Shown here: in pieces, positions 2,274 through 56,016 of the stretch
Layout: each line of letters opens with the position of its first letter
Position numbering within the stretch: the first letter of the stretch is position 1
Origin: an uncultured bacterium
GTDB taxonomy: Bacteria > Eisenbacteria > RBG-16-71-46 > CAIMUX01 > WJJG01
Direction: 5' to 3'
DNA: 64,000 nucleotides
Assembly: GCA_964603725.1 (NCBI GenBank)
Contig: CAZRWW010000015.1
Coordinates: 18,494 to 82,493 of the forward strand
The notes under the pieces: model-generated
Told to the model about the DNA's origin: nothing
The model's database searches: none
Seen by the model: the letters and a program-made list of their open reading frames with translations, nothing else
Made by a program: the position numbers and the translations under genes

Positions 2274-2915
2274 ATGATCAGCGAGCTCGCCTTGCTGCGC
2301 GAGCGGCTCGTCGTGGCGCTGCGCGGCCCGCTTCCCGGGGCTCCCGCCCAGGCGCGCATGGCACCCGTGCCGCGGCCAGGCTGGCGGCCGCATGCGCCGC
2401 CGCCCCCCGGCCGCCCGGCCGCGGTCCTGGCCCTCTTCTATCCGTTGGGTGATGGCGGCCCCACCGCGCCGCCGGCTCTTCTCTATACCGAGCGCACCGA
2501 GACGGTCGAGACCCACCGCGGGCAGGTGTCGTTCCCGGGCGGAGCCGTGGAAACGGGCGAGTCGCCCGAGGCGACCGCGCTGCGCGAAGCGGACGAGGAG
2601 ACCGGCGCCGCGCCCGGGGAGATCGAGGTGCTCGGCCGGCTGACGCCGCTGTGGATCCCCGCCACGGGCTTTCTGGTCACCCCGGTCGTCGGCCTGACGG
2701 CGCGGCGGCCGGCCTTCCGGCCCGGTCCGGGCGAGGTGCGGCGCATCCTCGAGGTGCCCCTGGCGGACCTGGTGCGCCCGGACGCCGTGCGGGCCGAGGA
2801 TCTTCCCCGCCACGGGCGCTGGACCCACGTGCGCTACTTCGACATCGCCGGAACGCGCCTCTGGGGCGCGACGGCGATGATGACGGCCGAGCTGCTGACG
2901 CTGCTGGGGTGGTAG
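2274..2915 (+). CDS. Nudix hydrolase, CoA pyrophosphatase family
   Basis: Nudix box GQVSFPGGAVETGESPEATALREADEETG. Downstream LWGATA motif typical of CoA pyrophosphatases (NudL-like). Confidence 0.8.
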   Translation: MISELALLRERLVVALRGPLPGAPAQARMAPVPRPGWRPHAPPPPGRPAAVLALFYPLGDGGPTAPPALLYTERTETVETHRGQVSFPGGAVETGESPEATALREADEETGAAPGEIEVLGRLTPLWIPATGFLVTPVVGLTARRPAFRPGPGEVRRILEVPLADLVRPDAVRAEDLPRHGRWTHVRYFDIAGTRLWGATAMMTAELLTLLGW

Positions 2916-8588: not shown

Positions 8589-10625
8589 ATGAGAGGTAGG
8601 GTATTGCCGCTCGCGGTTTTGGCTGCGACCCTCGCGCTGGCAGCCACCTTGAGCGCCGGGGCTTCCGTTCCCCGGGTGATCATCGCCGAGGACTTCGGGT
8701 ATCCCGGCTGAAGCTACTGCCCCCATGCCCGGTGCGGGCTGGAAACTGTCCTGGCTGAGTTTGGCGAGCGGCTCATCGTGTCCGAGTGGCACACCTCGGG
8801 TGGCCTCAATATTCCCACCGTGGGCCAGCGGACGAGCTTCTACGGCGTTTCGGGTGTTCCGCACGTGCGGATCGACGGCAAATACTCGCAGGTGGGCGCG
8901 GGCTCTTGCTCCGGCGCGGCCGCGGCCTATCGGAATCTGATCAACACGCGCCTGAACGAGACCGGCGGTCTGGCGCCCGTCAAGGTCGAGGGCGTCTACG
9001 GCACGGATCCCAGCAACATCACGATGCAGGTGACGTGCACTCTGGTCGACGCCGTGACGCTGCAGAGCCCGCGGGTGTATCTCGTGGTCCTCGAGAACAA
9101 TGTCTTCCATCAAGGAACAACCTACCATCATATCGTGCGGGCCGAGTACCATCAGGACGTGTCCCTGCCCACCCAGGGTTCGTCGGTGACGGTCTCCTCG
9201 ACCTTCCCCATCGGAGGCACGTGGAACGTCGACAACATCGAGTGCGTCGCGTTCATCCAGAAGATGACCGGCGATAAGGAGATGTACAACTCGGCCCGCA
9301 TCCCGCTGCCGGCCGACTTCGAGTTCGCCTGGGATCAGACGCTCGTGTCGGTGCCCCAGGGCAACGGATTGGCCGAGTTCACCGGCCTGCTGACGAACAT
9401 CAGCGACGATCCGGATCAGCTGACCCTCACGCTGGACAACACCTTCGGCTGGCCGGCCGAGTTCATGGTCGAGGGCGAGGCTGGTTATCATACGACCCCC
9501 AGCATCATCAGCCTGAGCTCGCAGGAAGACGTGCAGGTCTTCATGCGCGTGCACACCGACACGCAGGTGCGCATCGGCACGGGCAACTTCATCGTGCACT
9601 CCGCCCTCACGGACCGCACGCAGCTCTCCTCCGTGCGCGTGTTCAACGGCAGCCCGGCCGTCCTCCTGGTCGACGACGACAACGGGATCCAGCCGACCCA
9701 GGAGCTCTTCGTCACGGCCCTCAATGCCAACAGCTATTTGTTCGACATCTGGGACGTGAAGCTCGGCCACGGCTCGGCGGCGCCCGCGCTGGACGACATG
9801 ATGCCCTACGACCTCATCGTGTGGATCACCGGCTGGGAAACCTATCAGCCGGTGACGCCGGCGGATGGCGAGAACCTCATGGACTTCATGGATCTGGGCA
9901 GGGGCGTCTTCATCTCGGCCCAGGACCTGACGACCGCCTTCCCCGTCGGGCACACCTTCCTGGTCGATTACCTCGGAATCGGTTCGTACACGACCAACGT
10001 CGGCGCTCTCCAGGCCAACGGCGCAGCCGGGGATCCGATCGGCGACGGCCTGCATTTGACGCTCACGTATCCGCTCACCTCGGTGAACCGGGCCGACGAG
10101 TACATCGCCAACGCGATCGGGACGCAGTTCATGACGAATCAGACCGGCCGGCCGATCGCGGTGCGGGCGGACAACGGCACGGCGCGCAGCGTGGCGCTGG
10201 GATTCGCCGGTGAGGCCATCGACGCCAACCCCAACCCCAACAACTGCACCGTGCTCTTGGGCCGGGCCCTCGATTGGATCTACGCGGCTCAGAGCCAGGG
10301 CGTGGCGGAGCGGGACGTCAAGCTCGTCTCCCACATCGGCGTCATCAGCCCGAACCCGTTCAGCTTCCATGGCGCGGGCAATGAGGCCGCCATCCGGCTG
10401 CGGCTGAGCAGCCAGGCGCTGCAGTCGCCGGTCCGGGTGGACATCCTGGACCTGAACGGGCGGCTTGTGCGCAACGTGCTCAACACGACGCTGGCGAGCG
10501 GCTCGACCGCGGCAGCCTGGAACGGGCTCGACGCCGGCGGCCGGCCGGTGGGCTCGGGCGTCTACTACGCTCGTCTGACGACCAGCGAGGGCACGCACAG
10601 CGCCCGCCTGGTGGTCATGCGTTAG
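8589..10625 (+). CDS. secreted thioredoxin-fold putative selenoprotein (paralog A) with in-frame TGA (Sec) at 8709..8711 and T9SS/FlgD-Ig C-terminal domain
   Basis: ORFs 8490..8711 and 8778..10625 share a frame with no other stop between them. Reading through TGA gives signal peptide, then VPRVIIAEDFGYPG-U-SYCPHARCG, then a Trx cis-Pro region GVSGVPHVRIDGK. RBS ggaggga lies before ATG 8589. The C-terminus DILDLNGRLVRNV...GSGVYYARL is a T9SS-type tail. Confidence 0.65.
8709..8745 (+). other. Sec-UGA plus candidate bacterial SECIS hairpin (GCCCGGUGCGGGC at 8727..8739, 15 nt after UGA)
   Basis: The identical hairpin at identical spacing follows the TGA in all three paralogs. Flanking bases differ between paralogs while the hairpin is preserved. 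Confidence 0.5.
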
Positions 10626-10922: not shown

Positions 10923-12965
10923 ATGAGCATGAAGAGGCTGAGGCTGTCTCTGGCCGCTCTGGGCGCGGCCGTCGCGCTGGCGGCGCCCATGAGCGCGGGA
11001 GCGTCGGTCGCGCGCGTGATCATGGCGGAGGACTTCGGGTACCCCGGCTGAGGTTTCTGTCCCCATGCCCGGTGCGGGCTGGAAATGATGCTCACCGAAT
11101 TCGGAGAGCAGCTCTTGGTGGCCGAATGGCACACCTCGGGCGGCCTCAACATCCCCACGGTCGGTCAACGCACGAGCTTCTACGGCGTGTCCGGTGTTCC
11201 GCACGTCAGGATCGACGGTAAGTACTCGGTGATCGGAGCCTCGTCCTGCACGGGCGCGGCCGCGAACTACCGCAACATGATCAACACGCGTCTGTCCGAG
11301 ACCGGCGGGCTTTCGCCGGTCGACATCACGGCCGTGCACTCGGTCAGCGCCACCGGCGTCTGGGTGTCGGCGACCTTCACTCTGGTGGATCCGGTGACGC
11401 TGGTCAGCCCCAGTGCCTATCTGATGGTGCTGGAGGACGATGTGCTCCATCTCGGAACCGTCTACGACCACATCGTGCGGGCCGAGTATCACGAGCCCGT
11501 CATCCTGACCAACCCCGGAGATCACGTCACCGTCGAAACCACCTTCCCGATCCAGGGGTGGAACGTCGACAACATCCAGTGTGTCGTCTTCCTCCAGAAG
11601 ATGACGGGCGACAAGGAGATGTACAACGCCAGGAAGGCTCCCATGGTCAGCGACTTCCGCTTCGCCTGGGAGGCCTCGATCATCTCCATCCCCGCCAGGA
11701 ACGGCACGGCAGCTTTCGAGGGCACCCTGACGAACATCAGCGACGGGTCGGACCAGCTCACGCTGACCCTGGACAACACCTTCGGGTGGCCGGCGGAGTT
11801 CATGGTCACGGGCGAGGCAGGCTACCACACCACGCCCAGCACCATCGCGCTGGATCCGCAGGAGCAGGTGGGAATCTACCTGCGGGTGCACACGGATAAC
11901 CAGCTACGCATCGGCGAGGGGCAGCTGGCGGTCTTCTCGGCGGTCAGCGAGCGCACGGCCTACTATCCGGCGCGGGTCTTCAACGGCAGCCAGGCGATCC
12001 TCTTTGTCGACGACGACAACGGCGTCCACCCCACGGAGCAGCCGTTCATCACCGCCCTGAACAACGGCGGCTACCTGTTCGATCGCTGGGACGTCCGGGT
12101 CGAGCACGGAGCCATGGCCCCGGACTTCGAGGTGATGCAGCCCTACGACATCGTGCTGTGGGCGACGGGCTATGACTACTCCGACATCATCACGCCGGCC
12201 AACGCCGGGGACTTGATGGCGTTCATGGACCAGGGCAAGGGCGTGATTCTCTCGAGCGCCGACTTCCTGAACGGGTTCACCGCGGGCAACACGTTTCTGA
12301 CCGACTATCTCGGCATCGCGACTTTCCAGACCAATGTGGGCGCGACCCAGGCGACCGGCGTGGGCGGCGATCCGATCAGCGGCGGCATGAGTCTCACGCT
12401 CGAGTACCCGCATTCGAGCTACAACCGCGCGGACCGCATCACGGCCAGTCCCATCGGAACGATCAACTTCCACAACCAGTCCAGCTACCCGATTGGCGTG
12501 CGGGCCGACAACGGCACGGCGCGCGCGGTCACCTTCACCTTTGCCGCCACGGCGGTCGTCGCGGGCGCCCATCCCAACAACCTGACCACGTTGATCGACC
12601 GGTCGATCGATTGGATCTGGGAGGCGCAGAGCCAGGGCGTTGCGGAGCCCGGCGGACCGGTGCGCGCCTCGCGCATCAGCAGCGTGCGTCCCAATCCGGT
12701 CGGCCCCGCGTCGGGCGGGGGCGCCGCGACGTTCCAGCTGACGCTCACGAACCGGGCCGCGGCGGCGCCCGTGCGCGTCGACGTGCTCGACCTGAACGGC
12801 CGGCTCGTGCGCAACGTCTGCGAAGCCCCGCTGCCGGCCGGCACCTCCAGCGTGAGCTGGGACGGCCGCGACGCGCTCGGCCACCCGGTGAGCGCGGGGA
12901 TCTACTACGCGCGGCTGGCGACGAGCGAGGGTGAGAGCAGCCGCCGCGTGGTGGTCGTGAGGTAG
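10923..12965 (+). CDS. secreted thioredoxin-fold putative selenoprotein (paralog B) with in-frame TGA (Sec) at 11049..11051 and T9SS-type C-terminal domain
   Basis: ORFs 10815..11051 and 11085..12965 are in frame. Readthrough gives VARVIMAEDFGYPG-U-GFCPHARCG. RBS gggaggag lies before ATG 10923. The hairpin is at 11067..11079. About 70% identical to paralog A along its length. Confidence 0.65.
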
Positions 12966-13149: not shown

Positions 13150-15264
13150 TCAGAACTCCCGCAGCGACTCGTGGATGCCCTTGAGCGTCTCGAACCAGAA
13201 GTCGAGCGCCGCCTCGTCGGGCTCCTGGCGGAAGCGCTCCAGCCAATGCAGCAGTTCGCGGGACTGGTCACCGTCCACCTCGCAGCGGCGCTCCATGAAG
13301 CGGTGAACGAAGTCGAGGTTGCGCCGAGACTCCCAGTAGACGGAGGCGTTGCGGCTGTTGATGCGGCTGGCCGTGCGGTGGATGTTGACGAGGAAGCGAT
13401 CCCGCAGGCCCCACAGCGAGTCCATGACCTCGGGCAGCATCTCCTCCGCCCACTTGCGGTGGAATCGGCACATGCCCAGATCATCCAGGATCAGCTCGGC
13501 GCGCAAGCGCTCCGCTCCCCGCCGCCCGAGCTCGCGCGGCGGTAGGAAGTCGGCGTCGTAGTGCATGTAATACTTGCCCATGATCGCCATCGGTGACAGC
13601 ACGCCCGGCGTCCAGTACTGGTTGGGCACCATCCAGCCGCGGCGCGCGAAGGCGGTGTAGAGGAACGGGTCGAGCACGCGCTTGCCCCGCTCGCGCGCCA
13701 GGCGGCGGGCGAGCTTGCGGGCGCCCTCGCTCAGGTCGAGCACGCCCCGGCGAGCGATGATGGCGTCGAGCAGCGCCGCGCCCAGCCGGGCGTTGTGCAT
13801 CGAATCGCCCTCGAGCGAGAACTCCCGCAAGGAGAGCTGGCCCCGCGAGGTTCCGGCCGTCGCCGCTCCGCCGGCCGACGCGCTGCCGCTCGACGTGCCG
13901 CTCGACGTGCCGCCCGCGGATGCACGGGCCGCGGGGGCCGCCGCGAACACCGGCAGCTCCGTCACCCCCAGGTCTTTCGGGGCCAGGTATCCTTCGGCGA
14001 GGCACTCCATCAGCCACGCCAGCACGCCGCCGGCGGAGATGGCGTCGAAGCCCAGGGTGTCGGCGCGGCCGTTGAGCAGCTCGGCCGCGCGCTGGTCGAA
14101 GATGCCGCACAGGGGGCCCATCGTCTGGTAGGGTTCGTAGTCCTTCTTGTACTCCGCCCGCATCTTCTTGCACACCGCGCTGCAGGGCTCGCCGCATGTG
14201 CGCTGGCTCTTGGTCGCGATCGTCTCCTCGTTGAACTGCTTCAGGTAGTGGTTGGCGATGAAGCGCTCGTGCAACGCCAGACGATCCGCCTCGCTCATGA
14301 AGATGCTGCGGTAGTTGAAGGCCAGGACGCGCCCACCCAGCGTCGCGAAGTTCACGCCGAAGGTGCCGCCCGTGCCAAACTTGGGGTCGAAGCGGTACTT
14401 GAGCGTGGACTCGAGATCCTTTGCGGCCAGACGCTTCCGGTACTTCTCCTCGAACCAGCGGTCGGCCACCTGGCGGTCGCGGAAGTCCTCGTCAATGAAG
14501 GTGCCGCCGTAGATCACGCCCACCAGACCGTGCTCGCGGTAGAGCTTGCTGCCGAGCCCACCCCGGCCCGCCCACGTGTCGACGAACGTGATCCGGCCGT
14601 CCTTGATCGGCGCTGAAGCGATCGCGCCGAAGTCGGTGACCTCGGCCGCGGGCCCGACGGCCAGGATGCGCGGATCGGTTTCATAGGCGCTGCCGCACTG
14701 CGCGAGCGCGTGCTGCATCACGCCGTAGACGCCGCCGCGGCCGGTCGACCACAGGACGCGCGGATCGACCGGGAGGAGATCGACCTGGATCTCCTCGCCG
14801 TGCACGCGGTTCAGGACGAGCAGGGAGCGGCGTTGGGCGCGGCCCACGAGCGAGATCATGTTCACGCCCAGGTTGTCGAAGACCAACCCGGCGCCGCCCA
14901 TCGAAGACACGAAGAAGCCGCTCCAGCAGGGCGAGAAGCCGTTCACGATGAGCCGGTTCGAGCCCGGGAAGATCGAGCCGGCAAGCAGGCCGACGCCGAT
15001 GTTGAGGCTGTTGTGGCGGCCGGCCAGGTGGAGCCCCAGATCCACCGGCCCGAAGAAGTCGCCCAGCGCGAAGCGCCGCACGCGATAGAAGCCGGTGGCC
15101 AGGTCCACGAGCAGAACCCGGATGGTCTGGGCGCGGAATTCCGGACGCGCTTCCCGGGCCGACTCGCCAGCTGGCTCCGCGGCCGAGTTAGCGACCGGGT
15201 CCGGGGGCGATCCCAAGGGTGATCCCAAAGGCGATTCCGAGGGCGATTCCGAGGGCGATTCCAT
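13150..15264 (-). CDS. aldehyde:ferredoxin oxidoreductase (AOR) family protein, divergent
   Basis: The N-terminal domain resembles AOR: TIRVLLVDLATG...GGAGLVFDNLGVNMISLVG. Cys cluster TCGEPCSAVCKK is C-x3-C-x3-C rather than the canonical C-x2-C-x3-C. The N-terminal 20 aa (ESPS/LGSP repeats) are encoded by a 12-bp tandem repeat. Start uncertain. Confidence 0.55.
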   Translation of the reverse strand: MESPSESPSESPLGSPLGSPPDPVANSAAEPAGESAREARPEFRAQTIRVLLVDLATGFYRVRRFALGDFFGPVDLGLHLAGRHNSLNIGVGLLAGSIFPGSNRLIVNGFSPCWSGFFVSSMGGAGLVFDNLGVNMISLVGRAQRRSLLVLNRVHGEEIQVDLLPVDPRVLWSTGRGGVYGVMQHALAQCGSAYETDPRILAVGPAAEVTDFGAIASAPIKDGRITFVDTWAGRGGLGSKLYREHGLVGVIYGGTFIDEDFRDRQVADRWFEEKYRKRLAAKDLESTLKYRFDPKFGTGGTFGVNFATLGGRVLAFNYRSIFMSEADRLALHERFIANHYLKQFNEETIATKSQRTCGEPCSAVCKKMRAEYKKDYEPYQTMGPLCGIFDQRAAELLNGRADTLGFDAISAGGVLAWLMECLAEGYLAPKDLGVTELPVFAAAPAARASAGGTSSGTSSGSASAGGAATAGTSRGQLSLREFSLEGDSMHNARLGAALLDAIIARRGVLDLSEGARKLARRLARERGKRVLDPFLYTAFARRGWMVPNQYWTPGVLSPMAIMGKYYMHYDADFLPPRELGRRGAERLRAELILDDLGMCRFHRKWAEEMLPEVMDSLWGLRDRFLVNIHRTASRINSRNASVYWESRRNLDFVHRFMERRCEVDGDQSRELLHWLERFRQEPDEAALDFWFETLKGIHESLREF
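15204..15263. repeat. 5 x 12-bp tandem repeat (RGGYGATYCCRA) encoding the N-terminal SPSESPSESPLGSPLGSP of the AOR-like protein
   Basis: Read directly from the sequence. Confidence 0.7.
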
Positions 15265-15415: not shown

Positions 15416-16600
15416 ATGTCGGCGCGGGATGGGATCGCTCGGCGGCACGCGCGGCGCCTGGCCGCAGGTTCCGCCGCGCGCCTGGAGGCGGGCTCGGCCG
15501 AACGCCTGGCCGCGGGCTCGGCCGCGCGCCTGGCCGTCGGTCTCGCCTGGCTGCTCGCCTGGCTGATGCCGGCAGCTCAGCCGACCGCCGCCTCGATGGC
15601 AAAGGTGATTCTGGCCGAGTCGTTCACCGCGACATGGTGAGGGCCTTGCACGCACGCCCGGTGCGGGCTGCAGGTGGTCCAGGCGGAGTTCGGCAGCCAG
15701 CTCATTGTCGCCAATCATCACCAGGACGACATGTTCGAGATTCCGTGGGTGGAGACCAGGTCCAATCTCTACGGGGCCGGCTGCATGCCGCACGTGCGCA
15801 TCGACGGCAAGTTCGCCATTCGCGGCGCGCAGAGCTGTAGCTGGGCCGCCGCCCAATACCGCACGGCGATCCAACAACGGCTGGCCGAGACCGAGGGCGT
15901 GAGCCCGGTCGAGATCGCCGGGGCCTACTTCGTCGGGGCCGACTCGGTGTACGTGGCGGCCACCTTCACGCTGACGGAATCAGCCGCCCTGCCCGACACG
16001 CGCGGCTACCTGCTGATGCTCGTGGATGGTCTCTGCTGGGCCTCGGTCTACTACGATCGCGTGACGCAGGGTGCCCACGAGCAGAGCGTGACCCTCAACC
16101 AGCCCGATGACGAAGCCACCATCGCGGCGGCATTTGCGCGCCAACCGGGGTGGGATTCTGATGATATTCATTGCCTGGCCTTCATCCAGTGCCTGAGCGA
16201 CAGCCTCGAGGTGCATCAGGCGACCTGGCTCAGCGAGATCTCCGCCCGGGTCCCCGAAGATCCGGCTCCCGCCTGGCGGGGCCGGATGTGGGCCAGCCCC
16301 AATCCCTTCCCGGCCTCGCGCGGGCTGCTGCGCGTCGGCTTCGCGGAGCGGGTTCTCCAGTCGACCGACATGGGCCTCGCGGGAACCCCGGGCGGCGCGG
16401 CGTGGGGGCCCGTGGAAGTCCTGGACGGACAGGGTCGGCTGGTCGCACAGATCGGGCACGATCCGTCGGCCGGCGCCGGGTGCGTCGCCCAATGGGATGG
16501 CCGCGACGGCCGGGGGCTTCCTCTGCCGCCCGGGGCCTATTGGATTCGCGCCCGGGACGGCCGCGCTGCGACGGCCACGCGGGTCATCCTTGTCCGCTGA
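15416..16600 (+). CDS. secreted thioredoxin-fold putative selenoprotein (paralog C, shorter) with in-frame TGA (Sec) at 15638..15640 and T9SS-type C-terminal domain
   Basis: ORFs 15383..15640 and 15674..16600 are in frame. Readthrough gives AKVILAESFTATW-U-GPCTHARCG, i.e. the Trx signature WCGPC with Sec as the first residue. The cis-Pro region is GAGCMPHVRIDGKF. The hairpin is at 15656..15668. The start may be 15383 (TTG) or 15416 (ATG). Confidence 0.65.
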
Positions 16601-16753
16601 TTCCGCCCCCCCTGGGGCAAAGGCCTTACTTCCATTCTCCCCGATCCCCTCCCATCGAGAGCTTCTTTTCGGGCTGACAGCCGGGGCGCGACGTGTTACG
16701 ATGCGCGGCCAAACTGATTCCAGGATCGGACTTACGCTAGGGGGAGGCCCGCA

Positions 16754-17134
16754 ATGATGTACCGCTGGCACGCCGGGTACGTCGCCTGGCTGCTCAACCG
16801 CATCACCGGCATCGCCATCACCTTCTACCTGGTCCTGCACATCTGGGTGATCCATCACCTGGCGCAAGGGCCGGAGAAGTACGGCAAGGTGATGGCGTTC
16901 CTCAGCAGCAAGCTCTTCATGCTCTTCGAAATCGCGCTGATCGGTGCGGTGCTGTATCACATGATGAACGGCATTCGCATCGTGTTGGTCGATCTCGGCA
17001 AGAGCGTCCAGAATCACAAGACCACCTTCTGGGTGCTGATGGGGATCGGCGTGGTCCTCTACGTCCTGTGCGTCTGGGAACTGGTCGGGGGCTTGTTCGC
17101 CGCGACTCACGCGGCACCGGCGCCGCACGCCTAG
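16754..17134 (+). CDS. sdhC: succinate dehydrogenase cytochrome b subunit
   Basis: Three TM helices with His ligands (LVLHIWVIHHL, VLYHMMNGIRIVLVD). First gene of the sdhCDAB order. Confidence 0.8.
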   Translation: MMYRWHAGYVAWLLNRITGIAITFYLVLHIWVIHHLAQGPEKYGKVMAFLSSKLFMLFEIALIGAVLYHMMNGIRIVLVDLGKSVQNHKTTFWVLMGIGVVLYVLCVWELVGGLFAATHAAPAPHA

Positions 17135-17216
17135 CGCCGGCCGCCTGGTGCCGCACGCCCAGCCTCGCTGGCGGGCGTAGCGTTCACCGCGGGCCGCCAT
17201 ACAGGAGGAAGGGAAG

Positions 17217-17576
17217 ATGCAGGACAGAGGAATCGGATCGGGCGGGGCGCTGCAGTGGCTGTTCCAGCGCATCACGGGGATTGTCCTGGTCCCGATCCTG
17301 TTGGCGCACCTCTTGACGATGCACCGCTACCACCAGCACGGACTGGCCTGGAACGACGTCATCGCTCTGTTCAACAAGCCTTACTGGAAGGTGCTGGAAG
17401 TGTCGTTCCTCGTGATCGCGCTCTATCACGCGGTCAATGGAGCCTACGTGATCGTGCAGGACTACGTGAAGAAGCCCGGCTGGCGCCTCGCCATCTACGG
17501 GGCGCTCCTCGTGCTGGCCGTGGTTCTGCTGGCCTTCGGGCTCGTCACGGTCTTTACGGTCAAGCAGCCGGTCTAG
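17217..17576 (+). CDS. sdhD: succinate dehydrogenase hydrophobic membrane anchor subunit
   Basis: RITGIVLVPILLAHL...IALYHAVNGAYVIVQDY. Sits between sdhC and sdhA. Confidence 0.8.
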   Translation: MQDRGIGSGGALQWLFQRITGIVLVPILLAHLLTMHRYHQHGLAWNDVIALFNKPYWKVLEVSFLVIALYHAVNGAYVIVQDYVKKPGWRLAIYGALLVLAVVLLAFGLVTVFTVKQPV

Positions 17577-17633
17577 GCCGGCGCGGCAGTCAGCGCACAC
17601 AGGCAGGATCCGGCCACATAGAGGAACAGGACC

Positions 17634-19385
17634 ATGAAGCTCGATGTCACCTTCCACAAACACGAAGTGGTGGTCGTTGGGGCGGGAATCGCCGGCCTCT
17701 ACTCGGCGCTCAAGACGAGCGCCGCCGTCGACACGGCGGTCCTGAGCAAGGTCTACCCGACGCGATCGCATTCGGGCGCCGCGCAGGGCGGCTGCGCCGC
17801 CTCGCTCGGCAATATGATGGAGGACCACTGGCAGTGGCACCTCTACGACACGGTGCGGGGCAGCGACTTCCTGGGGGATCAGGACGCCCAGGAGCTGCTG
17901 GTCCGCGACGCCGCCCCCGTGATGTACGAGATGGAGCATCTGGGCGTCCCCTTCTCGCGCACCGAGGACGGCCGCATCGCCCAGCGCCCCTTCGGCGGCC
18001 ACTTCGGGAACTTCGGCAAGTCGCCGATGAGTCGCTCCTGCTACGCGGCCGACCGCACGGGCCATGTCCAGCTCCACACCCTCTATGAGCAGTGCCTGAA
18101 GAACGAGGTGCGCTTCTACAATGAATTCTACGCTCTGTCGCTGATCATGGATCACGGCGTGTGCAAGGGCGTGGTGGCCTGGGACATGCAGAAGGGCGGG
18201 TTGCACGTCTTCCACGCCCGGGCGGTTCACGTGGCCACCGGCGGGTACGCGCGGTGCTGGAAGATCACCTCCAACGCCATGTCGAACACCGGTGACGGTT
18301 TGGCGCTGGTCATGCGGCAGGATCTGCCGCTGGAGGACATGGAGTTCGTCCAGTTCCATCCGACCGGTCTCTGGAAGCATGGGATCCTCGTGTCCGAGGC
18401 GGCGCGCGGCGAGGGCGGCTACCTCATCAACGACAAGGGCGAGCGTTTCATGGAGCGCTACGCCAAGGCCAAGATGGAGCTGGCGCCCCGCGACGTCGTT
18501 TCGCGCGCGGAGCAGAGCGAGATCGACGAGGGGCGTGGCATCGAGGGTCAGGATCGCATCAACCTGGACCTGCGCCATCTGGGCCGCGAGCTCATCCTGG
18601 AGCGTCTGCCCCAGGTGCGGGAACTGGGGATCAAGTTCATGGGCCTCGACATGATCACCGATTCGATCCCGATCCAGCCGACCGCGCACTATTCGATGGG
18701 GGGCATCCCGACCAACCTGGACACGCAGGTGCTCAAGGGCAAGACCAAAGACGACGTCGTGCCGGGGCTGTACTCCTCGGGCGAGTGCGCTTGCGTGTCG
18801 GTGCACGGCGCCAACCGGCTCGGAACGAATTCAACCCTCGAGTGCGCGGTCTATGGTCGGGTGGCCGGGATCAAGATGCTCGACTACGTCCGCGGCCTGG
18901 GCGGCCACGAGGATCTACCCGAGGATTGCGAGGGCATGGCGCGCGAGGAGGTCGAGCACCTGCTGTCGACCGCGGGGACCAGCGGCGTGCGCGCGGTCGA
19001 GCTGCGCGAGCGCCTGCAGGCGACGATGACCAAGAATGTGGCCGTCTACCGCAATGAAAAGGGGTTGCGCGAGCAGGTCTCGATCTGCGAGGACCTGCGG
19101 GCGCAGTACCGCCGCGTCACGATCGATGACGGCGGCACCTTCGCCAATACCGACTTGATCGAAGCGATCGAGCTCGGCCACATGCTCGACTACAGCTACA
19201 TGATCGCCTGCTGCGCGCTCGAGCGCACCGAGTGCCGCGGGGCCCACTGGCGCGTCGACCATCCGGGGCGCAACGACAAGGAGTGGCTCAAGCACACGCT
19301 GGCCTGGCTGAAGGGCGATGAGATCCGGCTCGACTACAAGCCGGTCGTGATCACCCGGTTCCAGCCGGAAGAGCGGAAGTACTAG
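17634..19385 (+). CDS. sdhA: succinate dehydrogenase flavoprotein subunit
   Basis: FAD fold VVVVGAGIAGLYSALK, covalent-FAD region RSHSGAAQGG, HPTG, RGEGG, active-site HYSMGG. Confidence 0.95.
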   Translation: MKLDVTFHKHEVVVVGAGIAGLYSALKTSAAVDTAVLSKVYPTRSHSGAAQGGCAASLGNMMEDHWQWHLYDTVRGSDFLGDQDAQELLVRDAAPVMYEMEHLGVPFSRTEDGRIAQRPFGGHFGNFGKSPMSRSCYAADRTGHVQLHTLYEQCLKNEVRFYNEFYALSLIMDHGVCKGVVAWDMQKGGLHVFHARAVHVATGGYARCWKITSNAMSNTGDGLALVMRQDLPLEDMEFVQFHPTGLWKHGILVSEAARGEGGYLINDKGERFMERYAKAKMELAPRDVVSRAEQSEIDEGRGIEGQDRINLDLRHLGRELILERLPQVRELGIKFMGLDMITDSIPIQPTAHYSMGGIPTNLDTQVLKGKTKDDVVPGLYSSGECACVSVHGANRLGTNSTLECAVYGRVAGIKMLDYVRGLGGHEDLPEDCEGMAREEVEHLLSTAGTSGVRAVELRERLQATMTKNVAVYRNEKGLREQVSICEDLRAQYRRVTIDDGGTFANTDLIEAIELGHMLDYSYMIACCALERTECRGAHWRVDHPGRNDKEWLKHTLAWLKGDEIRLDYKPVVITRFQPEERKY

Positions 19386-19394
19386 ACGGGGGAG

Positions 19395-20102
19395 ATGACG
19401 ATGGAGCGGACCTTCCGGATCTTCAGGTTCAATCCGCAGACCGACAAAGAGCCGCGCTACGACGCCTTCACCATCGAGGTGCAGCCGTCCTGGACGGTGC
19501 TCGATGCGCTGAACTACATCAAGTGGCATCACGACGGCACCCTCGCCTATCGCCGCTCGTGCAGGCACGGCATCTGCGGCTCCTGCGCCATGATGATCAA
19601 CGGCAAGAACGACCTGGCCTGCGAGCTGCAGATATCCGCGCTCAAGGGCGTGATCACGGTCGAGCCGCTCAAGGAGTTCAAGGTGCTCCGGGACCTGATG
19701 GTCGATCAGGAGCAGTTCTTCGAGAAGCTGCGGCTGGTCATGCCGTGGCTGATCAACCACACGCCGCCGCCCACCGACAAGGAGCGCCTGCAGAGCCCCG
19801 AGGACCGCAAGGTCATCGAGGGCTTCTGGGAGTGCATCCTGTGCGGCGCCTGCACGTCCGCCTGCCCGGCCTACTGGGACAACGACAGCTTCCTAGGGCC
19901 AGCCGCGCTGCTCAAGGCCTTCCGCTACGTGGGCGACACCCGCGACCAGGGGTTGGCCGATCGGGCCGGCGTGCTCGACAGCAAGATCGGCGTGTGGCGC
20001 TGCCATACGATCTTCAACTGCGTCGAGGCGTGCCCGAAGTCGCTCAATCCGACGGACGCGATCGTGCGGCTGCGCCGGAGGCTGATCGCCGAGAAGCTGT
20101 AG
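19395..20102 (+). CDS. sdhB: succinate dehydrogenase iron-sulfur subunit
   Basis: 2Fe-2S motif CRHGICGSCAMMINGKNDLAC. 4Fe-4S/3Fe-4S motifs CILCGACTSACP and CHTIFNCVEACP. Confidence 0.95.
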   Translation: MTMERTFRIFRFNPQTDKEPRYDAFTIEVQPSWTVLDALNYIKWHHDGTLAYRRSCRHGICGSCAMMINGKNDLACELQISALKGVITVEPLKEFKVLRDLMVDQEQFFEKLRLVMPWLINHTPPPTDKERLQSPEDRKVIEGFWECILCGACTSACPAYWDNDSFLGPAALLKAFRYVGDTRDQGLADRAGVLDSKIGVWRCHTIFNCVEACPKSLNPTDAIVRLRRRLIAEKL

Positions 20103-20353
20103 GTTCCGGAGCGAAGACAGTGTACTCCTGTTCTCCTGTCGGCGGCTGCCGCTAGGCCGTGGGCAAGATCCGCGTTCCCTCGCCATCCGCGGCCCCCTGC
20201 CTAGCCTGCGGCGCGCCGCAACTCTGCCCTGCAAGCACCCGAGCGACCCCGGGTCGATAGACGGATCCGCCCGCGCCCGGAGCATGGCCTTGGCGCCGCA
20301 GTGGGAGGGGGAGTAGACTCTCGGTGGACGTCCCACGAGAGAGGAGGTTGCTC

Positions 20354-21985
20354 ATGTCATCGAAGTCTGCTGCACTCGTCCTCTTCCCCCTGATGATGCT
20401 GGTGGCCCAATCCACCGACGCATCGGATGTGCGCACTTTTCTGAGGCCCGGCCTGGCGGGCGTCGATGTGATCCAGGAGATCACCGCCCCCCAAGCGCTT
20501 CCCGAACCGGTTGCCGCTGACCGGCTTTGCGAGGGCGCGCGAACGGATCTGGAAGAGCTCTGGCACCGTCACTACACCGACGCGATCTACACAACCACGG
20601 CGGTCTGCGGGGCCAGTGGCCTGATCGCCGCCGGAACCTACCTCAATCCGCCCAAGCAGGTGGAGGTCGTTCCCATCGAGGGTGTGGGAACGCCCGATTG
20701 GACCTATCCGGGGGTGGAGTTCTACGTCGACGCTTCAGGAGATGGTTCGATCATTGCGGGCGTCGACTACAATCAGCCCGCTCTGACGGTGACCGTGCAT
20801 TGCTGGGAGGCCGGGTCCGCCGTGCCGCTCTGGTCGACCACGATCCCCAACGCAAGCCGCGGCTCCTCCCGGACCGTGGATGTCTCCGCCGACGGTTCGA
20901 CGATCGCGGTGCTCGTGACGATGCAAACGGGAAGCCCGGCGGCGCGCCTGTACTTGTACAGCCCGGCTTCGTCGACGCCGCTGGGCGTCTTTGATGGGCC
21001 GGCGGGATTCGGACGCAACCTCTCGCTGGGTGATGACGGGCGCTTTGCCGCCTTCATCGGCCTGGCGACCATGTACGTCGTCGATCGCGACCTCGGCACA
21101 ATGCGCTGGAGCGGGAGCATGGGGGCTTCCAGTGACCCGGTGGCCATCTCGACCGACGGCAAGTACCTGGCCTTCGGCTGGACCAGCCTTAGGATGATGC
21201 AGTGGAACGGGCAGAGCTACGCCTCGCTCTGGACCGTCTCGGGCGGCAGCTTCGCCCTGGGAACCGTTGCATTTTCCGGTGACGGCCAGACGTGCGTTTC
21301 GGGCTGGTACCGCAGCGACTTCCGCCAGAACCGGATTCGGCCCTTCGCCATGCCCTCCAGCACGCCCCTCTGGACGTACGATTACGTCCAATCCAATGGG
21401 GTCTACCAGGAGACGCCGTACGACATCGCCGTCACCCCGGCCGGGGACTTCTTCGTCGTGGGCAGTTGGGGCGACATCGAGAACCTCAATCCGGAGGTGC
21501 ACCTCTTCGGCCGCGATCAGGCCACGCCGTTGGCTACCCTGGACACGCCGGGTTCGATGTTCGATGTGGACCTGCGCGGCACCGCGGCCGGGCTGATCGT
21601 CACCGCGGCGGGGAAGACAGTCCACGGGAATCAAACCGGTCGGGGCGGAGACCTCTATGCGCTGCGCTACGGGGACCCTGCCGAAGTGGCGGAAACGCGC
21701 CCCAGCGCGGCGACATTGCGGTTGGAAGCGGTCCCCAATCCGTTCTGCGCCGGCGCCGGGTTCAGCTTCGCGCTGGCCGAGGGGCAACCGCTGCGCGTCG
21801 CGCTCTACTCCGCCGACGGCCGGCAGGTGCGCATCCTGGCCGATGAGGTCTTTGCGACCGGCCGGCACAGGCTCGCCTGGGATGGCCGCGATCAAGAGGG
21901 CAGTGAGGTTCCCGCGGGTCTCTACCTGCTGCGCCTGGAGGGATCCGGCCACGCGGCCATGGCCCGGGCCGTTGTGGTTCGATAG
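20354..21985 (+). CDS. secreted beta-propeller-like repeat protein with T9SS/FlgD-Ig C-terminal domain
   Basis: RBS gagaggagg and signal peptide MSSKSAALVLFPLMMLVAQS. Repeated D-G-S / W-strand segments. The C-terminus is VPNPF...LYSADGRQVRIL...WDGRDQEGSEVPAGLYLLRL. Confidence 0.7.
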   Translation: MSSKSAALVLFPLMMLVAQSTDASDVRTFLRPGLAGVDVIQEITAPQALPEPVAADRLCEGARTDLEELWHRHYTDAIYTTTAVCGASGLIAAGTYLNPPKQVEVVPIEGVGTPDWTYPGVEFYVDASGDGSIIAGVDYNQPALTVTVHCWEAGSAVPLWSTTIPNASRGSSRTVDVSADGSTIAVLVTMQTGSPAARLYLYSPASSTPLGVFDGPAGFGRNLSLGDDGRFAAFIGLATMYVVDRDLGTMRWSGSMGASSDPVAISTDGKYLAFGWTSLRMMQWNGQSYASLWTVSGGSFALGTVAFSGDGQTCVSGWYRSDFRQNRIRPFAMPSSTPLWTYDYVQSNGVYQETPYDIAVTPAGDFFVVGSWGDIENLNPEVHLFGRDQATPLATLDTPGSMFDVDLRGTAAGLIVTAAGKTVHGNQTGRGGDLYALRYGDPAEVAETRPSAATLRLEAVPNPFCAGAGFSFALAEGQPLRVALYSADGRQVRILADEVFATGRHRLAWDGRDQEGSEVPAGLYLLRLEGSGHAAMARAVVVR

Positions 21986-51875: not shown

Positions 51876-52017
51876 ACTGCACCCCTCGGGCCCATGCCCC
51901 TGCCGGGTCGCGTGCCTGCGCCGGTCCGCGGGGCGCGGCTGCCGTCGCGCCGCCGGTCCGCGGTTGCGCACCGTCGCGCCCCTGGCACCCGGCCGCGCTC
52001 CCCCAGCCGGAAGGTGC

Positions 52018-55000: not shown

Positions 55001-55746
55001 AATGTGCGCCCGTCGCCCGGGCCGCCCGAACCGCCGCCCGGATCGCCCGCGCGGCCGGCGCGGTCGAAGAGCCCGCGGCCGCCGGCGGCGGCGTAGCGAT
55101 CGGCCATCTCGGGGTTGTCGATGTGCCGGGCCAGCCAGGTGCGCGTGGCCTCGTCGGCGCGGAAGGTCGCCGCCGAGCGCGCGCGGGCGCTCTCGTCGGG
55201 CCCGGTCGTGATCTCGACCCTCAACCGCGACCAGAATTCCACCTGGCGGGAGGCCGGCCGAGCGCGCAAGGGGAAGAGCTCGACGTACGCGATGCGGTGG
55301 CCGCGATAGATCTGCACGCTGGCCAGCCGTCCGGCCTCGGCGGGAAAGAGCGCGTCGCTGCCGTAGATCGCGGCCTTGGGCTGCGTCGGCGCGATCGGGC
55401 CCTCGAAGGAAAGCGGATACTCCCGCTGGGCCGGGGCCGGCAGATGCGACGACGCCTGCGCCGCGGCTTCGGCGACGACCCGCACGGAGACGATCTCCTC
55501 GCCCGGCGGCAGGAGGATGCGCGCGGCGCCCACGGGCAGGAGCGGCTCGCCGGCCTGGCCGATCGTGCGGGTGCCGGCGATGGCGGGGACCTCGTGGCCG
55601 GGCCAAGTGGGGTCGCTCTGCCAGGTGGGGGCGGCGAAGGTGTAGCTGAAGGAGAGCTCCTCCGCGACGGCGGGGGAGAGCCCCGCGGCGAGGGTGGCCA
55701 GACCGATCCATGCGAGGGCCCGCTGTGACGCCTTGCTCAGTCTCAT
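52018..55746 (-). CDS. peptidase C25 (gingipain-like) family protein with Ig-like repeats, MAM-like domain and T9SS C-terminal domain
   Basis: Start MRLSKASQRAL at 55746 with a signal peptide. C25 N-terminal domain layout YLHVIVTTQALVPACQPLVADRTAKGLPSTIVTVDDIY...IRNFILDAY...YIFFMGDNNVIP...HVGRV. The C-terminus is PNPF...VMDVQGRIVRSL...GIYFYRL. Confidence 0.7.
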   Translation of the reverse strand: MRLSKASQRALAWIGLATLAAGLSPAVAEELSFSYTFAAPTWQSDPTWPGHEVPAIAGTRTIGQAGEPLLPVGAARILLPPGEEIVSVRVVAEAAAQASSHLPAPAQREYPLSFEGPIAPTQPKAAIYGSDALFPAEAGRLASVQIYRGHRIAYVELFPLRARPASRQVEFWSRLRVEITTGPDESARARSAATFRADEATRTWLARHIDNPEMADRYAAAGGRGLFDRAGRAGDPGGGSGGPGDGRTFVDPADTYLHVIVTTQALVPACQPLVADRTAKGLPSTIVTVDDIYASYTGRDNQERIRNFILDAYQNWESEYIFFMGDNNVIPDRDCYCYVIDEGNPMETNDLCCELYYGGLDGTWNDDGDDRWGEVGEADLVPDIHVGRVCADNASEALNYVNKVLRYERQPVVNEIESASFYGEYLWEGTYGDWYMEEIRLGASTWGYTTAGVPLSWNTTTFYEEFGSWSGSQFISKMSSGCHMAHHLGHANETYDVKVYVSDIPSFTADGITHTYNFGYSQGCYAGCFDQADCIHEEFVHAEKGFVAWIGNTRYGFGVHYTTNGSSQYYHRQFVDALFDEGLNELGAANDDSRTDNVPYIAYESNRWVHYEVTAFGDPSMPLWTARPRTPQLDHAGVFVLGQTSYGVTVSANGEPIAGARVCLWDELGTCYGFGVTGAAGSVTVPVAPGYPGTMHLVVSDADLLVTETTFPIVPNGPYVVIESHWIDDGIAGNGDGDCDAGETIHLYVDLCNVWNAPIAGVTATLACASPEVTILDGAAAYGTIPGGGVAGGQGGDHYTFQIAGNCPDQHALPFTLDIRDAGSGHWTGSFTYTADAPTLAIVTLAIDDELGGDGDGCLDPGETALVTVTLSNAGHRNATTVAGMLFSGGGGLVVTQAVGSAPEIPVGGAATLSPAFEVMLEPWALSPGIVTCRLRVSADWSLAIDLSAPIGIGGFADDMEAGEGAWSHAVVTPGFNDQWHLSSQRNHTSGGSHSWKFGAAGTGTYTNLADGALMTGEIEIAETTVLTFWHWIAAEVSSAYPGRCYDGGLVELSLDGGPWTRIDPDGGYPYTIRTGSTPGPFPADTPVFSGSHGWQLETFTIEGPSGMARFRFRFGSDGADAMEGWYIDDVEVHSWPPASAIPEPGRALALRPVLLANRPNPFAPETQIAFLLPVAGEVRLSVMDVQGRIVRSLLDGPLAAGRHAVIWDGADGGGHPQPAGIYFYRLESDAASQVRKMTLLR

Positions 55747-56016
55747 GATGTGGGAATCCTCCCTGTGTGTAGGACCGCCTCGGGCTCGGCGTTCCTCGGG
55801 GCTTCCGGGGACCGCGCGGCGAGCGCGCACCCCTCTCGGTCGCCTACGGCAGAGCCGGCCACGGCGGCTGCGCGCTGGCGCGGCGGGAGCCCCGGCGAGC
55901 GGGGGGTGAAACTCACTACGATTCTACCACATGGGCAAGGCGAGCGGGTCCTGCGGCATGGCTCGGGGCCGAAGCCGGCGACAGAGCGGGCGGACACTGT
56001 CTGCCCGGGGGGCCTG

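What the first reader, a model, noticed from the sequence alone, without database searches (positions are those of the whole stretch)
8727..8739. Identical GC hairpin 15 nt downstream of each candidate Sec-UGA: putative bacterial SECIS
GCCCGGUGCGGGC occurs at 8727..8739, 11067..11079 and 15656..15668. In every case it lies exactly 15 nt after the TGA. It is a 4-5 bp G:C stem with a GU-containing apical loop, and flanking bases extend the helix. Bacterial SECIS elements are hairpins placed immediately 3' of the UGA with G/U apical-loop residues read by SelB. The 15 nt between TGA and hairpin differ between paralogs (AGCUACUGCCCCCAU, GGUUUCUGUCCCCAU, GGGCCUUGCACGCAC) while the hairpin and its spacing are invariant. 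That conservation suggests an RNA-level constraint, although the protein-level HARCG conservation could also produce it.
Basis: partly seen in the sequence, partly recalled or inferred. Interest (0 to 1): 0.7.

Follow-up and report, generated by a model that had tools for sequence, protein, structure and literature searches.

The report
Selenocysteine-insertion hairpins in three paralogous genes
Three related genes for exported thioredoxin-like proteins each carry an in-frame UGA followed by the same small RNA hairpin, and comparison with 23 relatives shows the hairpin is conserved as RNA, so it is very probably an ordinary bacterial selenocysteine-insertion signal in a protein family that gene callers usually cut in two.

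Summary
GCCCGGTGCGGGC occurs exactly three times (0.07 expected), each 15 nt after an in-frame TGA in one of three paralogous genes. These genes encode a signal peptide, a thioredoxin/Omp28-like domain with a U-x-x-C motif, and a FlgD-Ig/T9SS tail.

The SECIS reading is supported by comparison, not by folding alone.
- All 26 TGA-containing homologous sites I collected (11 lineages below 50% identity) keep the TGA and the spacing.
- The hairpin Arg codon is CGG in 23/23 sequences, against 22% CGG at other conserved Arg columns. Gly is GGG in 20/21, against 18% elsewhere.
- One stem pair shows compensatory change (C-G to G-C four times, U·G once).
- An R-to-W variant keeps the stem and loop G. 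An AAC variant has a different 9-bp hairpin at the same place.
- Cys, Ala and Ser homologues mostly lose the loop G (4 of 5) or the stem (3 of 5).

The geometry fits the bacterial SECIS consensus and resembles E. coli fdhF: an 11-nt spacer, a helix starting at nt 15, a bulge, and a GU loop.

Caveats: folding z-scores are not significant, 38% of the window's TGAs pass the consensus, and no Sec machinery was found in the window.

The proteins hit NCBIfam "Omp28-related selenoprotein" below its cutoff. This is a new member of a known kind.

The parts
8589..10625 (+). Paralogue 1 (long form, about 678 aa). It has a signal peptide, a thioredoxin/Omp28-like N-domain with U-S-Y-C, a middle domain, and a FlgD-Ig/T9SS C-terminal domain.
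   Evidence: The frame is continuous apart from the TGA at 8709. ATG 8589 is preceded by GGAGGGAG. Pfam hits are FlgD_ig at 32.5 bits and Omp28 at 29.7 bits, the latter below its cutoff. NCBIfam hits are NF045500 Omp28_seleno (E=5e-20, 72 bits, cutoff 200), TIGR04183 T9SS sorting domain (25.1 bits, cutoff 23) and TIGR00411 thioredoxin (E=4e-6), all.
8709..8711 (+). In-frame UGA of paralogue 1, read as selenocysteine (the U of the U-x-x-C motif).
   Evidence: This codon is TGA in all 26 Sec-form homologous sites and TGC/TGT in the Cys forms L013-L015. TGA is otherwise an ordinary stop in 10 of 26 window genes.
8723..8742 (+). SECIS-like hairpin of paralogue 1: CCA/U-bulge/GCCCG [GUG] CGGGC/UGG. 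It occupies nt 15-34 counted from the U of UGA. The 13-nt core is 8727-8739.
   Evidence: -12.2 kcal/mol; 5-bp upper stem, 3-nt loop, 20 nt from UGA to loop.
10923..12965 (+). Paralogue 2 (long form, about 680 aa), U-G-F-C. The start is approximate (ATG 10923 or 10929).
   Evidence: It is 68% identical to paralogue 1 over the N-domain.
11049..11051 (+). In-frame UGA (Sec) of paralogue 2.
11063..11082 (+). SECIS-like hairpin of paralogue 2 (core 11067-11079).
   Evidence: -12.2 kcal/mol.
15416..16600 (+). Paralogue 3 (short form, about 394 aa): N-domain plus FlgD-Ig tail, U-G-P-C. The start codon is uncertain. It lies directly upstream of sdhCDAB.
   Evidence: It is 35-40% identical to paralogues 1 and 2.
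15638..15640 (+). In-frame UGA (Sec) of paralogue 3.
15652..15671 (+). SECIS-like hairpin of paralogue 3: GCA/C-bulge/GCCCG [GUG] CGGGC/UGC (core 15656-15668).
   Evidence: -12.3 kcal/mol.

Best explanation
Each hairpin is a bacterial selenocysteine insertion sequence (bSECIS) embedded in the coding region.

Proposed mechanism. When the ribosome reaches the UGA, the hairpin 11 nt downstream is still folded. It is an 8-bp helix with one bulged nucleotide and an apical G-U-G loop. [quoted passage not shown] Selenocysteine is then inserted instead of terminating. This yields one exported protein whose thioredoxin-like active site is U-x-x-C.

Shown here: the repeat, its fixed spacing, the conserved in-frame TGA aligned to Cys in homologues, and RNA-level conservation and covariation of the hairpin.

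Inferred, not shown: SelB binding, actual Sec insertion, and the presence of selA/selB/selC/selD in this genome.

The amino-acid motif A-R-C-(G/A)-L and the hairpin share the same 13 nt. The protein fixes codon positions 1 and 2. The RNA fixes the third positions and the loop G.
For: 1. The exact 13-mer occurs 3 times against 0.07 expected, always 15 nt after an in-frame TGA.

2. Sec/Cys pairing. All 26 collected Sec-form sites have TGA at the first position of x-x-C. The Cys homologues P0004, P0036 and P0038 have TGC/TGT there.

3. One polypeptide. The signal peptide lies upstream of the TGA, and the catalytic and C-terminal sorting domains lie downstream.

4. TGA is an ordinary stop in 10 of 26 window genes, so there is no global reassignment.

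5. Frozen synonymous sites. Arg is CGG in 23/23 sequences, covering all 8 lineages that have Arg, against 16/74 at three control Arg columns. Gly is GGG in 20/21 against 18/98. Control Ala columns use 4 codons, whereas the hairpin Ala is GCC when its partner is G and GCG when its partner is C.

6. Pair counts. 94.6% of cells in the 5-bp stem are paired, against 18-65% when the partners are slid. The covariation score is 0.154 against 0.073 shuffled (0 of 500 shuffles reach it). Pair 21-29 is CG:19, GC:4, UG:1. The RNAalifold consensus is the same 5-bp stem and GUG loop.

7. Amino-acid changes that keep the RNA. L022a (A-W-C-A) has GCGUG[GUG]CGCGC. L023a (A-A-C-G) loses the register but has CAUGCGGCC[UGCG]GGCuuCGCAUG at the same place (-12.7 kcal/mol).

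8. First loop nucleotide. It is G in 25 of 26 Sec forms and in 1 of 5 non-Sec forms. My hand-computed one-sided Fisher p from these counts is about 8e-4.

9. [quoted passage not shown]

10. The geometry parallels the E. coli minimal SECIS as described in PMC8659212: nt 15-31, 11 nt from UGA, bulged U17, loop G23/U24. Here the helix is nt 15-34, the bulge is nt 18, and the loop is G24 U25.

11. The proteins hit NCBIfam NF045500 "Omp28-related selenoprotein" (U-x-x-C; listed as GOS_C in PMC13188914) at E=5e-20.
Against: - Folding energies are not better than shuffled sequence (z from -1.2 to +0.7).
- In this 69.5% GC window, 38% of all TGA triplets pass my re-implementation of the bSECIS consensus, and 13% do so with MFE of -12 or lower. 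Meeting the model proves little on its own.
- Two Cys-form homologues (L013, L014) also form a perfect 5-bp stem from GCG CGC TGC GCG. Preferred codons for A-R-C-A can therefore create the stem without any Sec. Alternatively, these are remnant SECIS structures of the kind described in PMC1794560.
- A-R-C is conserved in non-Sec forms too, so part of the nucleotide identity is protein-driven.
- Two Sec-form sites have a weak hairpin: L001 has a C.C mismatch (-5.5) and L019 has A-V-C-G (-3.9).
- The lower 3-bp extension is unpaired in 4 to 11 of the 26 homologues, depending on the pair, and the bulged base is not conserved.
- There is no tRNA at all in the window, so no selC. No selA, selB or selD was recognised among the ORFs inspected.
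- Only five non-Sec homologues could be examined at the DNA level.
Confidence: 0.87

Rival explanations
1. The hairpin has no RNA function. The identical 13 nt are a by-product of a conserved A-R-C-G-L peptide motif plus strong GC3 codon bias and recent duplication.
For: A-R-C is conserved in the Cys, Ala and Ser forms as well. The Cys forms L013 and L014 make a 5-bp stem from the most frequent codons GCG CGC TGC GCG. Paralogues 1 and 2 are 68% identical and may share codons by descent. Folding z-scores are not significant.
Against: The frozen codons are not the preferred ones. CGG is 29% of Arg codons and GGG is 21% of Gly codons in the window. At control columns of the same alignment they are 22% and 18%, yet in the hairpin they are 23/23 and 20/21 across 11 lineages whose synonymous sites are otherwise scrambled. 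There is a compensatory change at pair 21-29. Hairpins are retained when the peptide motif changes to AWC or AAC. The loop G is lost in 4 of 5 non-Sec forms.
Confidence: 0.06
2. The hairpin is a functional RNA element but not a SelB-dependent SECIS. It could, for example, be a structure that slows the ribosome to promote near-cognate read-through of UGA as Cys or Trp, or one that stabilises the mRNA.
For: SelB binding was not tested, and no Sec machinery is visible in the 64 kb. Hairpins downstream of stop codons can stimulate read-through in other systems (my own knowledge, not checked here).
Against: The UGA aligns with the nucleophilic Cys of a CxxC redox motif, which is the classic Sec/Cys signature. 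The loop G-U, its distance from UGA and the bulged helix match the SelB-recognised layout. The protein family is related to a curated selenoprotein family.
Confidence: 0.05
3. The TGAs are true stops. Each locus would then be a small leader ORF plus a separate downstream gene, or a pseudogene, and the hairpin would be incidental.
For: Public gene calls split the homologues exactly this way, for example a 42-aa ORF followed by a truncated ORF. Most database representatives start just after the hairpin.
Against: Amino-acid conservation runs uninterrupted across the TGA in 26 sites from 11 lineages. The downstream part would lack a signal peptide although it carries a secretion-sorting C-terminal domain. 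Cys homologues are continuous. Three paralogues in one genome and five on one related contig all keep the TGA.
Confidence: 0.02

Closest known systems
E. coli fdhF/fdnG-type bacterial SECIS (SelB-binding hairpin immediately 3' of Sec-UGA)
   Same: It lies in the coding region. It starts 11 nt after the UGA, at nt 15. It has a short G:C-rich upper stem, a single bulged pyrimidine on the 5' side in the window copies, and an apical loop with G followed by U at nt 24-25 (E. coli G23/U24). The E. coli description is from PMC8659212.
   Different: The sequence is unrelated. The upper stem above the bulge is 5 bp with a 3-nt GUG loop (or 4 bp with a GGUGC loop), rather than 4 bp with a GGUC loop (my recollection of the E. 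coli fdhF hairpin, not checked in a paper read here). The bulged base is not conserved among homologues (U, C, A or none), whereas U17 is essential in E. coli. There is no long lower stem reaching back to the UGA. SelB binding was not tested.
Consensus bSECIS model of bSECISearch (Zhang and Gladyshev), as summarised in PMC13188914
   Same: All four criteria are met at the three sites: a 3-nt loop, a 5-bp upper stem, G then U at the start of the loop, 20 nt from UGA to loop, and MFE of -12.2 to -12.3 kcal/mol.
   Different: The model is permissive in this genome. 38% of all TGA triplets in the window pass it, so it adds little discriminating power.
NCBIfam NF045500 'Omp28-related selenoprotein' (= 'Hypothetical protein GOS_C', U-x-x-C, from the GOS metagenome)
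   Same: It shares the Omp28-like/thioredoxin-like N-domain with a single Sec in a U-x-x-C motif. It is the best NCBIfam hit for paralogue 1 (E=5e-20) and paralogue 3 (E=2e-8).
   Different: Scores of 72 and 34 bits are far below the family cutoff of 200, so these are not members by NCBI's rule. The proteins here carry an extra A-R-C motif, a FlgD-Ig/T9SS C-terminal domain and, in the long form, a middle domain of about 330 aa.
Cys-containing Omp28-like / small archaeal thioredoxin (MJ0307, PDB 1fo5/1nho) proteins
   Same: The CxxC sits at the same position as U-x-x-C. There is weak but consistent similarity over the first 80 or so residues (TIGR00411 E=4e-6; 1nho E=0.008). The full-length Cys homologues P0004, P0036 and P0038 are 35-48% identical.
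   Different: Those proteins have Cys, not Sec, and need no recoding signal. In their DNA the loop G is replaced by C, and in some the stem is broken.

Membership tests
Bacterial SECIS element (bSECIS consensus model) | [quoted passage not shown] | tested here: met
   The hairpin core starts 15 nt after the in-frame TGA in all three paralogues and in all 26 homologous Sec-form sites.
Bacterial SECIS element (bSECIS consensus model) | Apical loop of 3-9 nt on an upper stem of 4-16 bp | tested here: met
   The loop is GUG (3 nt) on a 5-bp G:C stem. 94.6% of stem cells are paired across 26 sequences.
Bacterial SECIS element (bSECIS consensus model) | G in one of the first two loop positions, usually followed by G or U | tested here: met
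   The loop is G-U-G. The first loop nucleotide is G in 25 of 26 Sec forms, and the following U is invariant. The U is also the first base of the Cys codon.
Bacterial SECIS element (bSECIS consensus model) | 16-37 nt between UGA and the apical loop | tested here: met
   The distance is 20 nt at all three sites.
Bacterial SECIS element (bSECIS consensus model) | Hairpin MFE of -7.5 kcal/mol or lower | tested here: met
   The values are -12.2, -12.2 and -12.3. However, 38% of all TGAs in the window also pass the whole model, and z-scores against shuffles are not significant.
Bacterial SECIS element (functional definition) | Binds SelB and directs Sec insertion at the UGA | not testable with these tools
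   This needs a reporter assay, 75Se labelling or mass spectrometry.
Bacterial SECIS element (functional definition) | The host genome encodes selA, selB, selD and tRNA(Sec) | tested here: inconclusive
   There is no tRNA in the 64-kb window. None of the ORFs translated or scanned is SelA, SelB or SelD, but not all ORFs were scanned. The rest of the genome is not available.
Bacterial SECIS element (comparative definition) | RNA-level conservation beyond what the protein requires, and loss in Cys homologues | tested here: met
   Synonymous sites are frozen. There is a compensatory pair. An alternative hairpin appears in the AAC variant. The loop G is lost in 4 of 5 non-Sec forms and the stem in 3 of 5. 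The limit is that only 5 non-Sec forms were examined.
NCBIfam NF045500 Omp28-related selenoprotein | Score at or above the curated cutoff (200 bits) | tested here: not met
   The scores are 72.1 bits (paralogue 1) and 33.8 bits (paralogue 3). These proteins are related but are not members by NCBI's threshold.
NCBIfam NF045500 Omp28-related selenoprotein | A single Sec in a U-x-x-C motif within an Omp28-like domain | tested here: met
   The motifs are U-S-Y-C, U-G-F-C and U-G-P-C. The motif listed for NF045500 in PMC13188914 is UxxC. The Pfam Omp28 hit is below its gathering score.
Selenoprotein (Sec/Cys-pair criterion) | In-frame TGA aligned to a conserved Cys in homologues, with conservation on both sides and TGA-containing orthologues in other organisms | tested here: met

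The most novel reading that the evidence does not exclude
Sec rather than Cys may be the majority state of a large, almost entirely mis-annotated family of exported (signal peptide plus T9SS/FlgD-Ig tail) U-x-x-C oxidoreductases in uncultured high-GC bacteria.

The family has 525 representatives at the 50% clustering level. About 90% of the closest ones are truncated at the TGA.

In this family the SECIS hairpin and the adjacent A-R-C-(G/A) peptide motif occupy the same 13 nt and co-evolve.

The short form is syntenic with sdhCDAB in the window and in three other loci from different samples (two nearly identical). This hints at a dedicated extracytoplasmic redox role linked to the succinate dehydrogenase / fumarate reductase complex.
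Probability: 0.3. Interest if true: 0.5.

Novelty: new member of a known kind. Interest (0 to 1): 0.3.

Why it matters
The practical consequence is for annotation.
- The three genes should each be annotated as one selenoprotein gene. They are not a 40-aa ORF plus a truncated ORF.
- The same correction applies to most database members of this family. All 8 truncated representatives I checked at the DNA level have the upstream in-frame TGA.

The locus is also a clean worked example of a coding-region RNA signal overlapping a conserved peptide motif. The protein fixes codon positions 1 and 2. The RNA fixes position 3 and tolerates only pair-preserving amino-acid changes.

It adds exported, T9SS-tailed U-x-x-C proteins to the catalogue of bacterial selenoproteins.

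It does not change the understanding of Sec decoding. The element looks like a textbook bSECIS.

Tried and rejected
- **Thermodynamic significance.** The 60-nt folds are no more stable than shuffles. I dropped this as evidence.
- **bSECIS rule set as a discriminator.** My first strict version, which used only contiguous-stem energy, rejected even the three sites. The version that allows the bulged extension passes them, but it also passes 38% of all TGAs. It is therefore used only as a membership check.
- **Rfam.** There were no hits at gathering thresholds over the whole window, and only noise near the site at E up to 10.
- **Covariance model of the element.** Model R1, searched over the window and 18 loci, found no further copies in the window beyond the three. 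There are no other genes with this SECIS type here.
- **The 1-mismatch copy at 2720.** It has no upstream TGA and is unrelated.
- **Global UGA reassignment.** Rejected, because TGA terminates 10 of 26 genes.
- **Broad alignment for the metagenome scan.** The narrower alignment returned only 6 loci.
- **Word-index homologue searches.** They found few relatives. The exhaustive representative search was what revealed the family.
- **Literature search for 'Omp28' with 'selenoprotein'.** It returned nothing.
- **Scan for further in-frame TGA genes in the window.** It found only one spurious antisense hit and was too strict to recover the three known sites, so it is uninformative.
Full report
**1. 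Observation**

GCCCGGTGCGGGC occurs exactly three times in the window, at 8727, 11067 and 15656 on the + strand. The expectation is 0.07, and none of 100 dinucleotide-preserving shuffles reached three. A one-mismatch copy at 2720 has no TGA upstream and is unrelated.

Each exact copy begins 15 nt after a TGA (8709, 11049, 15638).

**2. The genes**

Each TGA is in frame inside an otherwise open reading frame.
- Paralogues 1 (8589-10625) and 2 (about 10923-12965) are about 680 aa.
- Paralogue 3 (about 15416-16600) is about 394 aa.

All three have an N-terminal signal peptide upstream of the TGA. Next comes a thioredoxin-like/Omp28-like domain whose first motif is U-x-x-C-x-H-A-R-C-G. The C-terminus is a FlgD-Ig/T9SS sorting domain. 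The two long forms also have a middle domain.

Supporting hits:
- Pfam FlgD_ig is above threshold, and Omp28 is below it.
- The best NCBIfam family is NF045500 "Omp28-related selenoprotein", at E=5e-20 and 2e-8. The scores of 72 and 34 bits are far below the 200-bit cutoff.
- TIGR04183 (T9SS sorting domain) passes its cutoff for paralogue 1.
- TIGR00411 (MJ0307-type thioredoxin) matches residues 36-106.
- The only PDB sequence hits are the small archaeal thioredoxins 1nho and 1fo5.

A 2026 review lists NF045500 as "Hypothetical protein GOS_C", U-x-x-C, with one Sec (PMC13188914).

The window has 69.5% GC and about 90% GC3. TGA ends 10 of 26 genes and TAG ends 16, so UGA is not globally reassigned.

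**3. The family**

An exhaustive search with the post-TGA part of paralogue 1 found 525 cluster representatives (E up to 1e-3), of which 39 are at E up to 1e-30.

Thirty-five of those 39 begin within a few residues of the point just after the hairpin, typically "ML.EFG.QL". This is the signature of gene callers stopping at the TGA and restarting downstream. A minority are full length with C-x-x-C, namely P0004, P0036 and P0038. P0029 has Ala at the Sec position and P0049 has Ser.

All eight truncated representatives I checked at the DNA level have the in-frame TGA upstream.

In total I collected:
- 26 distinct Sec-form sites: 3 in the window and 23 in loci L001-L012 and L019-L023;
- 5 non-Sec sites: L013, L014, L015, L017 and L018.

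The 26 Sec forms fall into 11 clusters at 50% amino-acid identity.

**4. Is the hairpin more than a shadow of the peptide motif?**

The 13 nt encode A-R-C-G plus the first base of L. Codon positions 1 and 2 supply stem pairs 1, 4 and part of 5. The remaining pairs and the first loop base depend on third positions: Ala-3, Arg-3, Cys-3 and Gly-3.

*Codon usage.* In the Sec forms these third positions are frozen.
- Arg is CGG in 23/23 sequences, covering all 8 clusters that have Arg.
- Cys is TGC in 26/26.
- Gly is GGG in 20/21.
- Ala is GCC in 20, GCG in 5 and GCT in 1.

The frozen Arg and Gly codons are not the preferred ones. In the window CGG is 29% of Arg codons and GGG is 21% of Gly codons. 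In the same alignment, the other conserved columns vary freely.
- Three Arg columns use 3-5 codons each, with CGG at 16/74.
- Four Gly columns have GGG at 18/98.
- Two Ala columns use 4 codons each.

If the clusters are treated as independent, eight out of eight CGG at a 22% background has a probability of about 5e-6 (my arithmetic).

*Covariation.* The Ala third base pairs with the second base of the Gly/Ala codon. It is C when the partner is G in 19 sequences. It is G when the partner is C in four (L012, L020, L021, L022a), which is a compensatory C-G to G-C change. It is U opposite G once (L022b). L001 has a C.C mismatch and L023a a G.G.

*Pair counts.* On the 26-sequence alignment, 94.6% of cells in the 5-bp stem are paired, against 18-65% when the partners are slid. 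The covariation score is 0.154 against 0.073 for shuffles, with 0 of 500 shuffles as high. The RNAalifold consensus structure is the same stem and loop.

*Variants that change the peptide.* L022a has A-W-C-A (GCG TGG TGC GCG). It keeps the loop G and turns pair 4 into U.G. L023a has A-A-C-G and loses the register. It gains a different 9-bp hairpin, CAUGCGGCC[UGCG]GGCuuCGCAUG, whose loop sits one nucleotide away from the usual position (-12.7 kcal/mol).

**5. Non-Sec forms**

- L013 and L014 (Cys) have GCG CGC TGC GCG. This still makes a perfect 5-bp stem, but with loop C-U-G.
- L015 (Cys, GCC CGC TGC GCC) has two mismatches.
- L017 (Ala form, GCC CGT TGT GCA) has a broken stem.
- L018 (Ser form, TCC CGG TGC GGT) also has a broken stem.

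The first loop base is G in 25 of 26 Sec forms and in 1 of 5 non-Sec forms.

The two Cys-form hairpins show that preferred codons for A-R-C-A can create the stem by themselves. Alternatively, they are remnant SECIS-like structures after a Sec-to-Cys change, a phenomenon reported by Zhang et al. 2006 (PMC1794560). Because A-R-C persists in forms that need no SECIS, the peptide motif has a protein-level role as well. In more distant C-x-x-C relatives the R-C is not conserved.

**6. Fit to what is known about bacterial SECIS**

The consensus model quoted in PMC13188914 requires four things. The table compares them with the three window sites.

| Criterion | Model | Window sites |
|---|---|---|
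| Apical loop | 3-9 nt | 3 nt (GUG) |
| Upper stem | 4-16 bp | 5 bp |
| UGA to loop | 16-37 nt | 20 nt |
| MFE | -7.5 kcal/mol or lower | -12.2 to -12.3 |

Count from the U of UGA as nt 1. The helix occupies nt 15-34 and follows an 11-nt spacer. One nucleotide is bulged at nt 18, and the loop is G24-U25-G26.

PMC8659212 describes the E. coli minimal SECIS as nt 15-31, 11 nt from the UGA, with bulged U17 and loop G23/U24 as the SelB contacts. The layout here is nearly superimposable on that.

There are differences. The bulged base varies among homologues. The 3-bp lower extension is only loosely kept, with its three pairs unpaired in 7, 11 and 4 of 26 sequences.

**7. Weaknesses**

- Stability is not significant against shuffles.
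- The consensus model is passed by 38% of all TGA triplets in this GC-rich window.
- L001 and L019 have weak hairpins.
- Only five non-Sec homologues were available.
- The window holds no tRNA and no recognisable selA, selB or selD among the ORFs inspected. The organism's ability to decode Sec is therefore inferred, not shown.

**8. Verdict**

The element is an ordinary-looking bacterial SECIS in three paralogous genes for exported U-x-x-C thioredoxin/Omp28-like proteins. These proteins are related to the curated "Omp28-related selenoprotein" (GOS_C) family but fall outside its cutoff. This makes them a new member of a known kind.

The finding matters mainly for annotation, and as a clear case of overlapping protein and RNA constraints. 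It is of modest interest to a specialist.

Noticed in passing
window 15416-20102; L022 1252-7955; L023 6086-10575; L024 5812-10344: The short-form selenoprotein gene sits directly upstream of a succinate dehydrogenase/fumarate reductase operon. In the window this operon is two Sdh_cyt genes at 16754-17134 and 17217-17576, SdhA at 17634-19385 and SdhB at 19398-20102. The same order is seen in three loci from other samples, though L023 and L024 are nearly identical to each other. In L022 a Peptidase_C1 gene lies between the selenoprotein gene and the sdh genes. This may indicate a functional link.
   Followed up: partly
L003/L006 (contig CAZDKK010000010.1), TGAs at L003 3698, 6040, 8409, 10489 and L006 6925: One related contig carries four tandem long-form paralogues plus one short form. 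All five have the in-frame TGA and the hairpin. Contig Ga0209164_1000267 (L007 and L010) has the same long-then-short arrangement as the window, with up to 84% identity.
   Followed up: partly
Public gene calls in L019-L024 (e.g. L022 1126-1254 + 1291-2208): Gene callers split each Sec gene into an ORF of about 40-50 aa (the signal peptide up to the TGA) and a truncated ORF starting just after the hairpin. About 90% of the closest database representatives are truncated in this way.
   Followed up: yes
window, 26 predicted genes: Stop codon usage is unusual for a 69.5% GC genome: TAG 16, TGA 10, TAA 0.
   Followed up: no
window 20351-21985, 49275-52031 (-), 52018-55923 (-), 62636-64000 (-) and the three paralogues: At least seven proteins in the 64 kb end in the same FlgD-Ig/T9SS-like tail (…G.Y..RL…R..V..R*). 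This suggests an organism with a large exported proteome using this sorting domain. The taxon could not be determined with the tools.
   Followed up: no
window 15416-15560: The N-terminus of paralogue 3 upstream of its signal peptide contains an odd repeated peptide, RLAAGSAARLEAGSAERLAAGSAARL. Its true start codon is uncertain and may lie downstream of this repeat.
   Followed up: no
window 13150-15264 (-): An aldehyde:ferredoxin oxidoreductase-like gene (AFOR_N and AFOR_C domains) lies on the opposite strand between paralogues 2 and 3.
   Followed up: no
L002 13-60: One Sec-form homologue has U-G-P-W, so the resolving Cys is replaced by Trp. It keeps A-R-C-G and the exact hairpin. In that protein the downstream Cys of A-R-C might serve as the resolving residue.
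   Followed up: no
window 2720-2732: GCCCGGTCCGGGC is a perfect 6+6 palindrome one mismatch from the hairpin core. It is not preceded by a TGA and is probably unrelated.
   Followed up: yes
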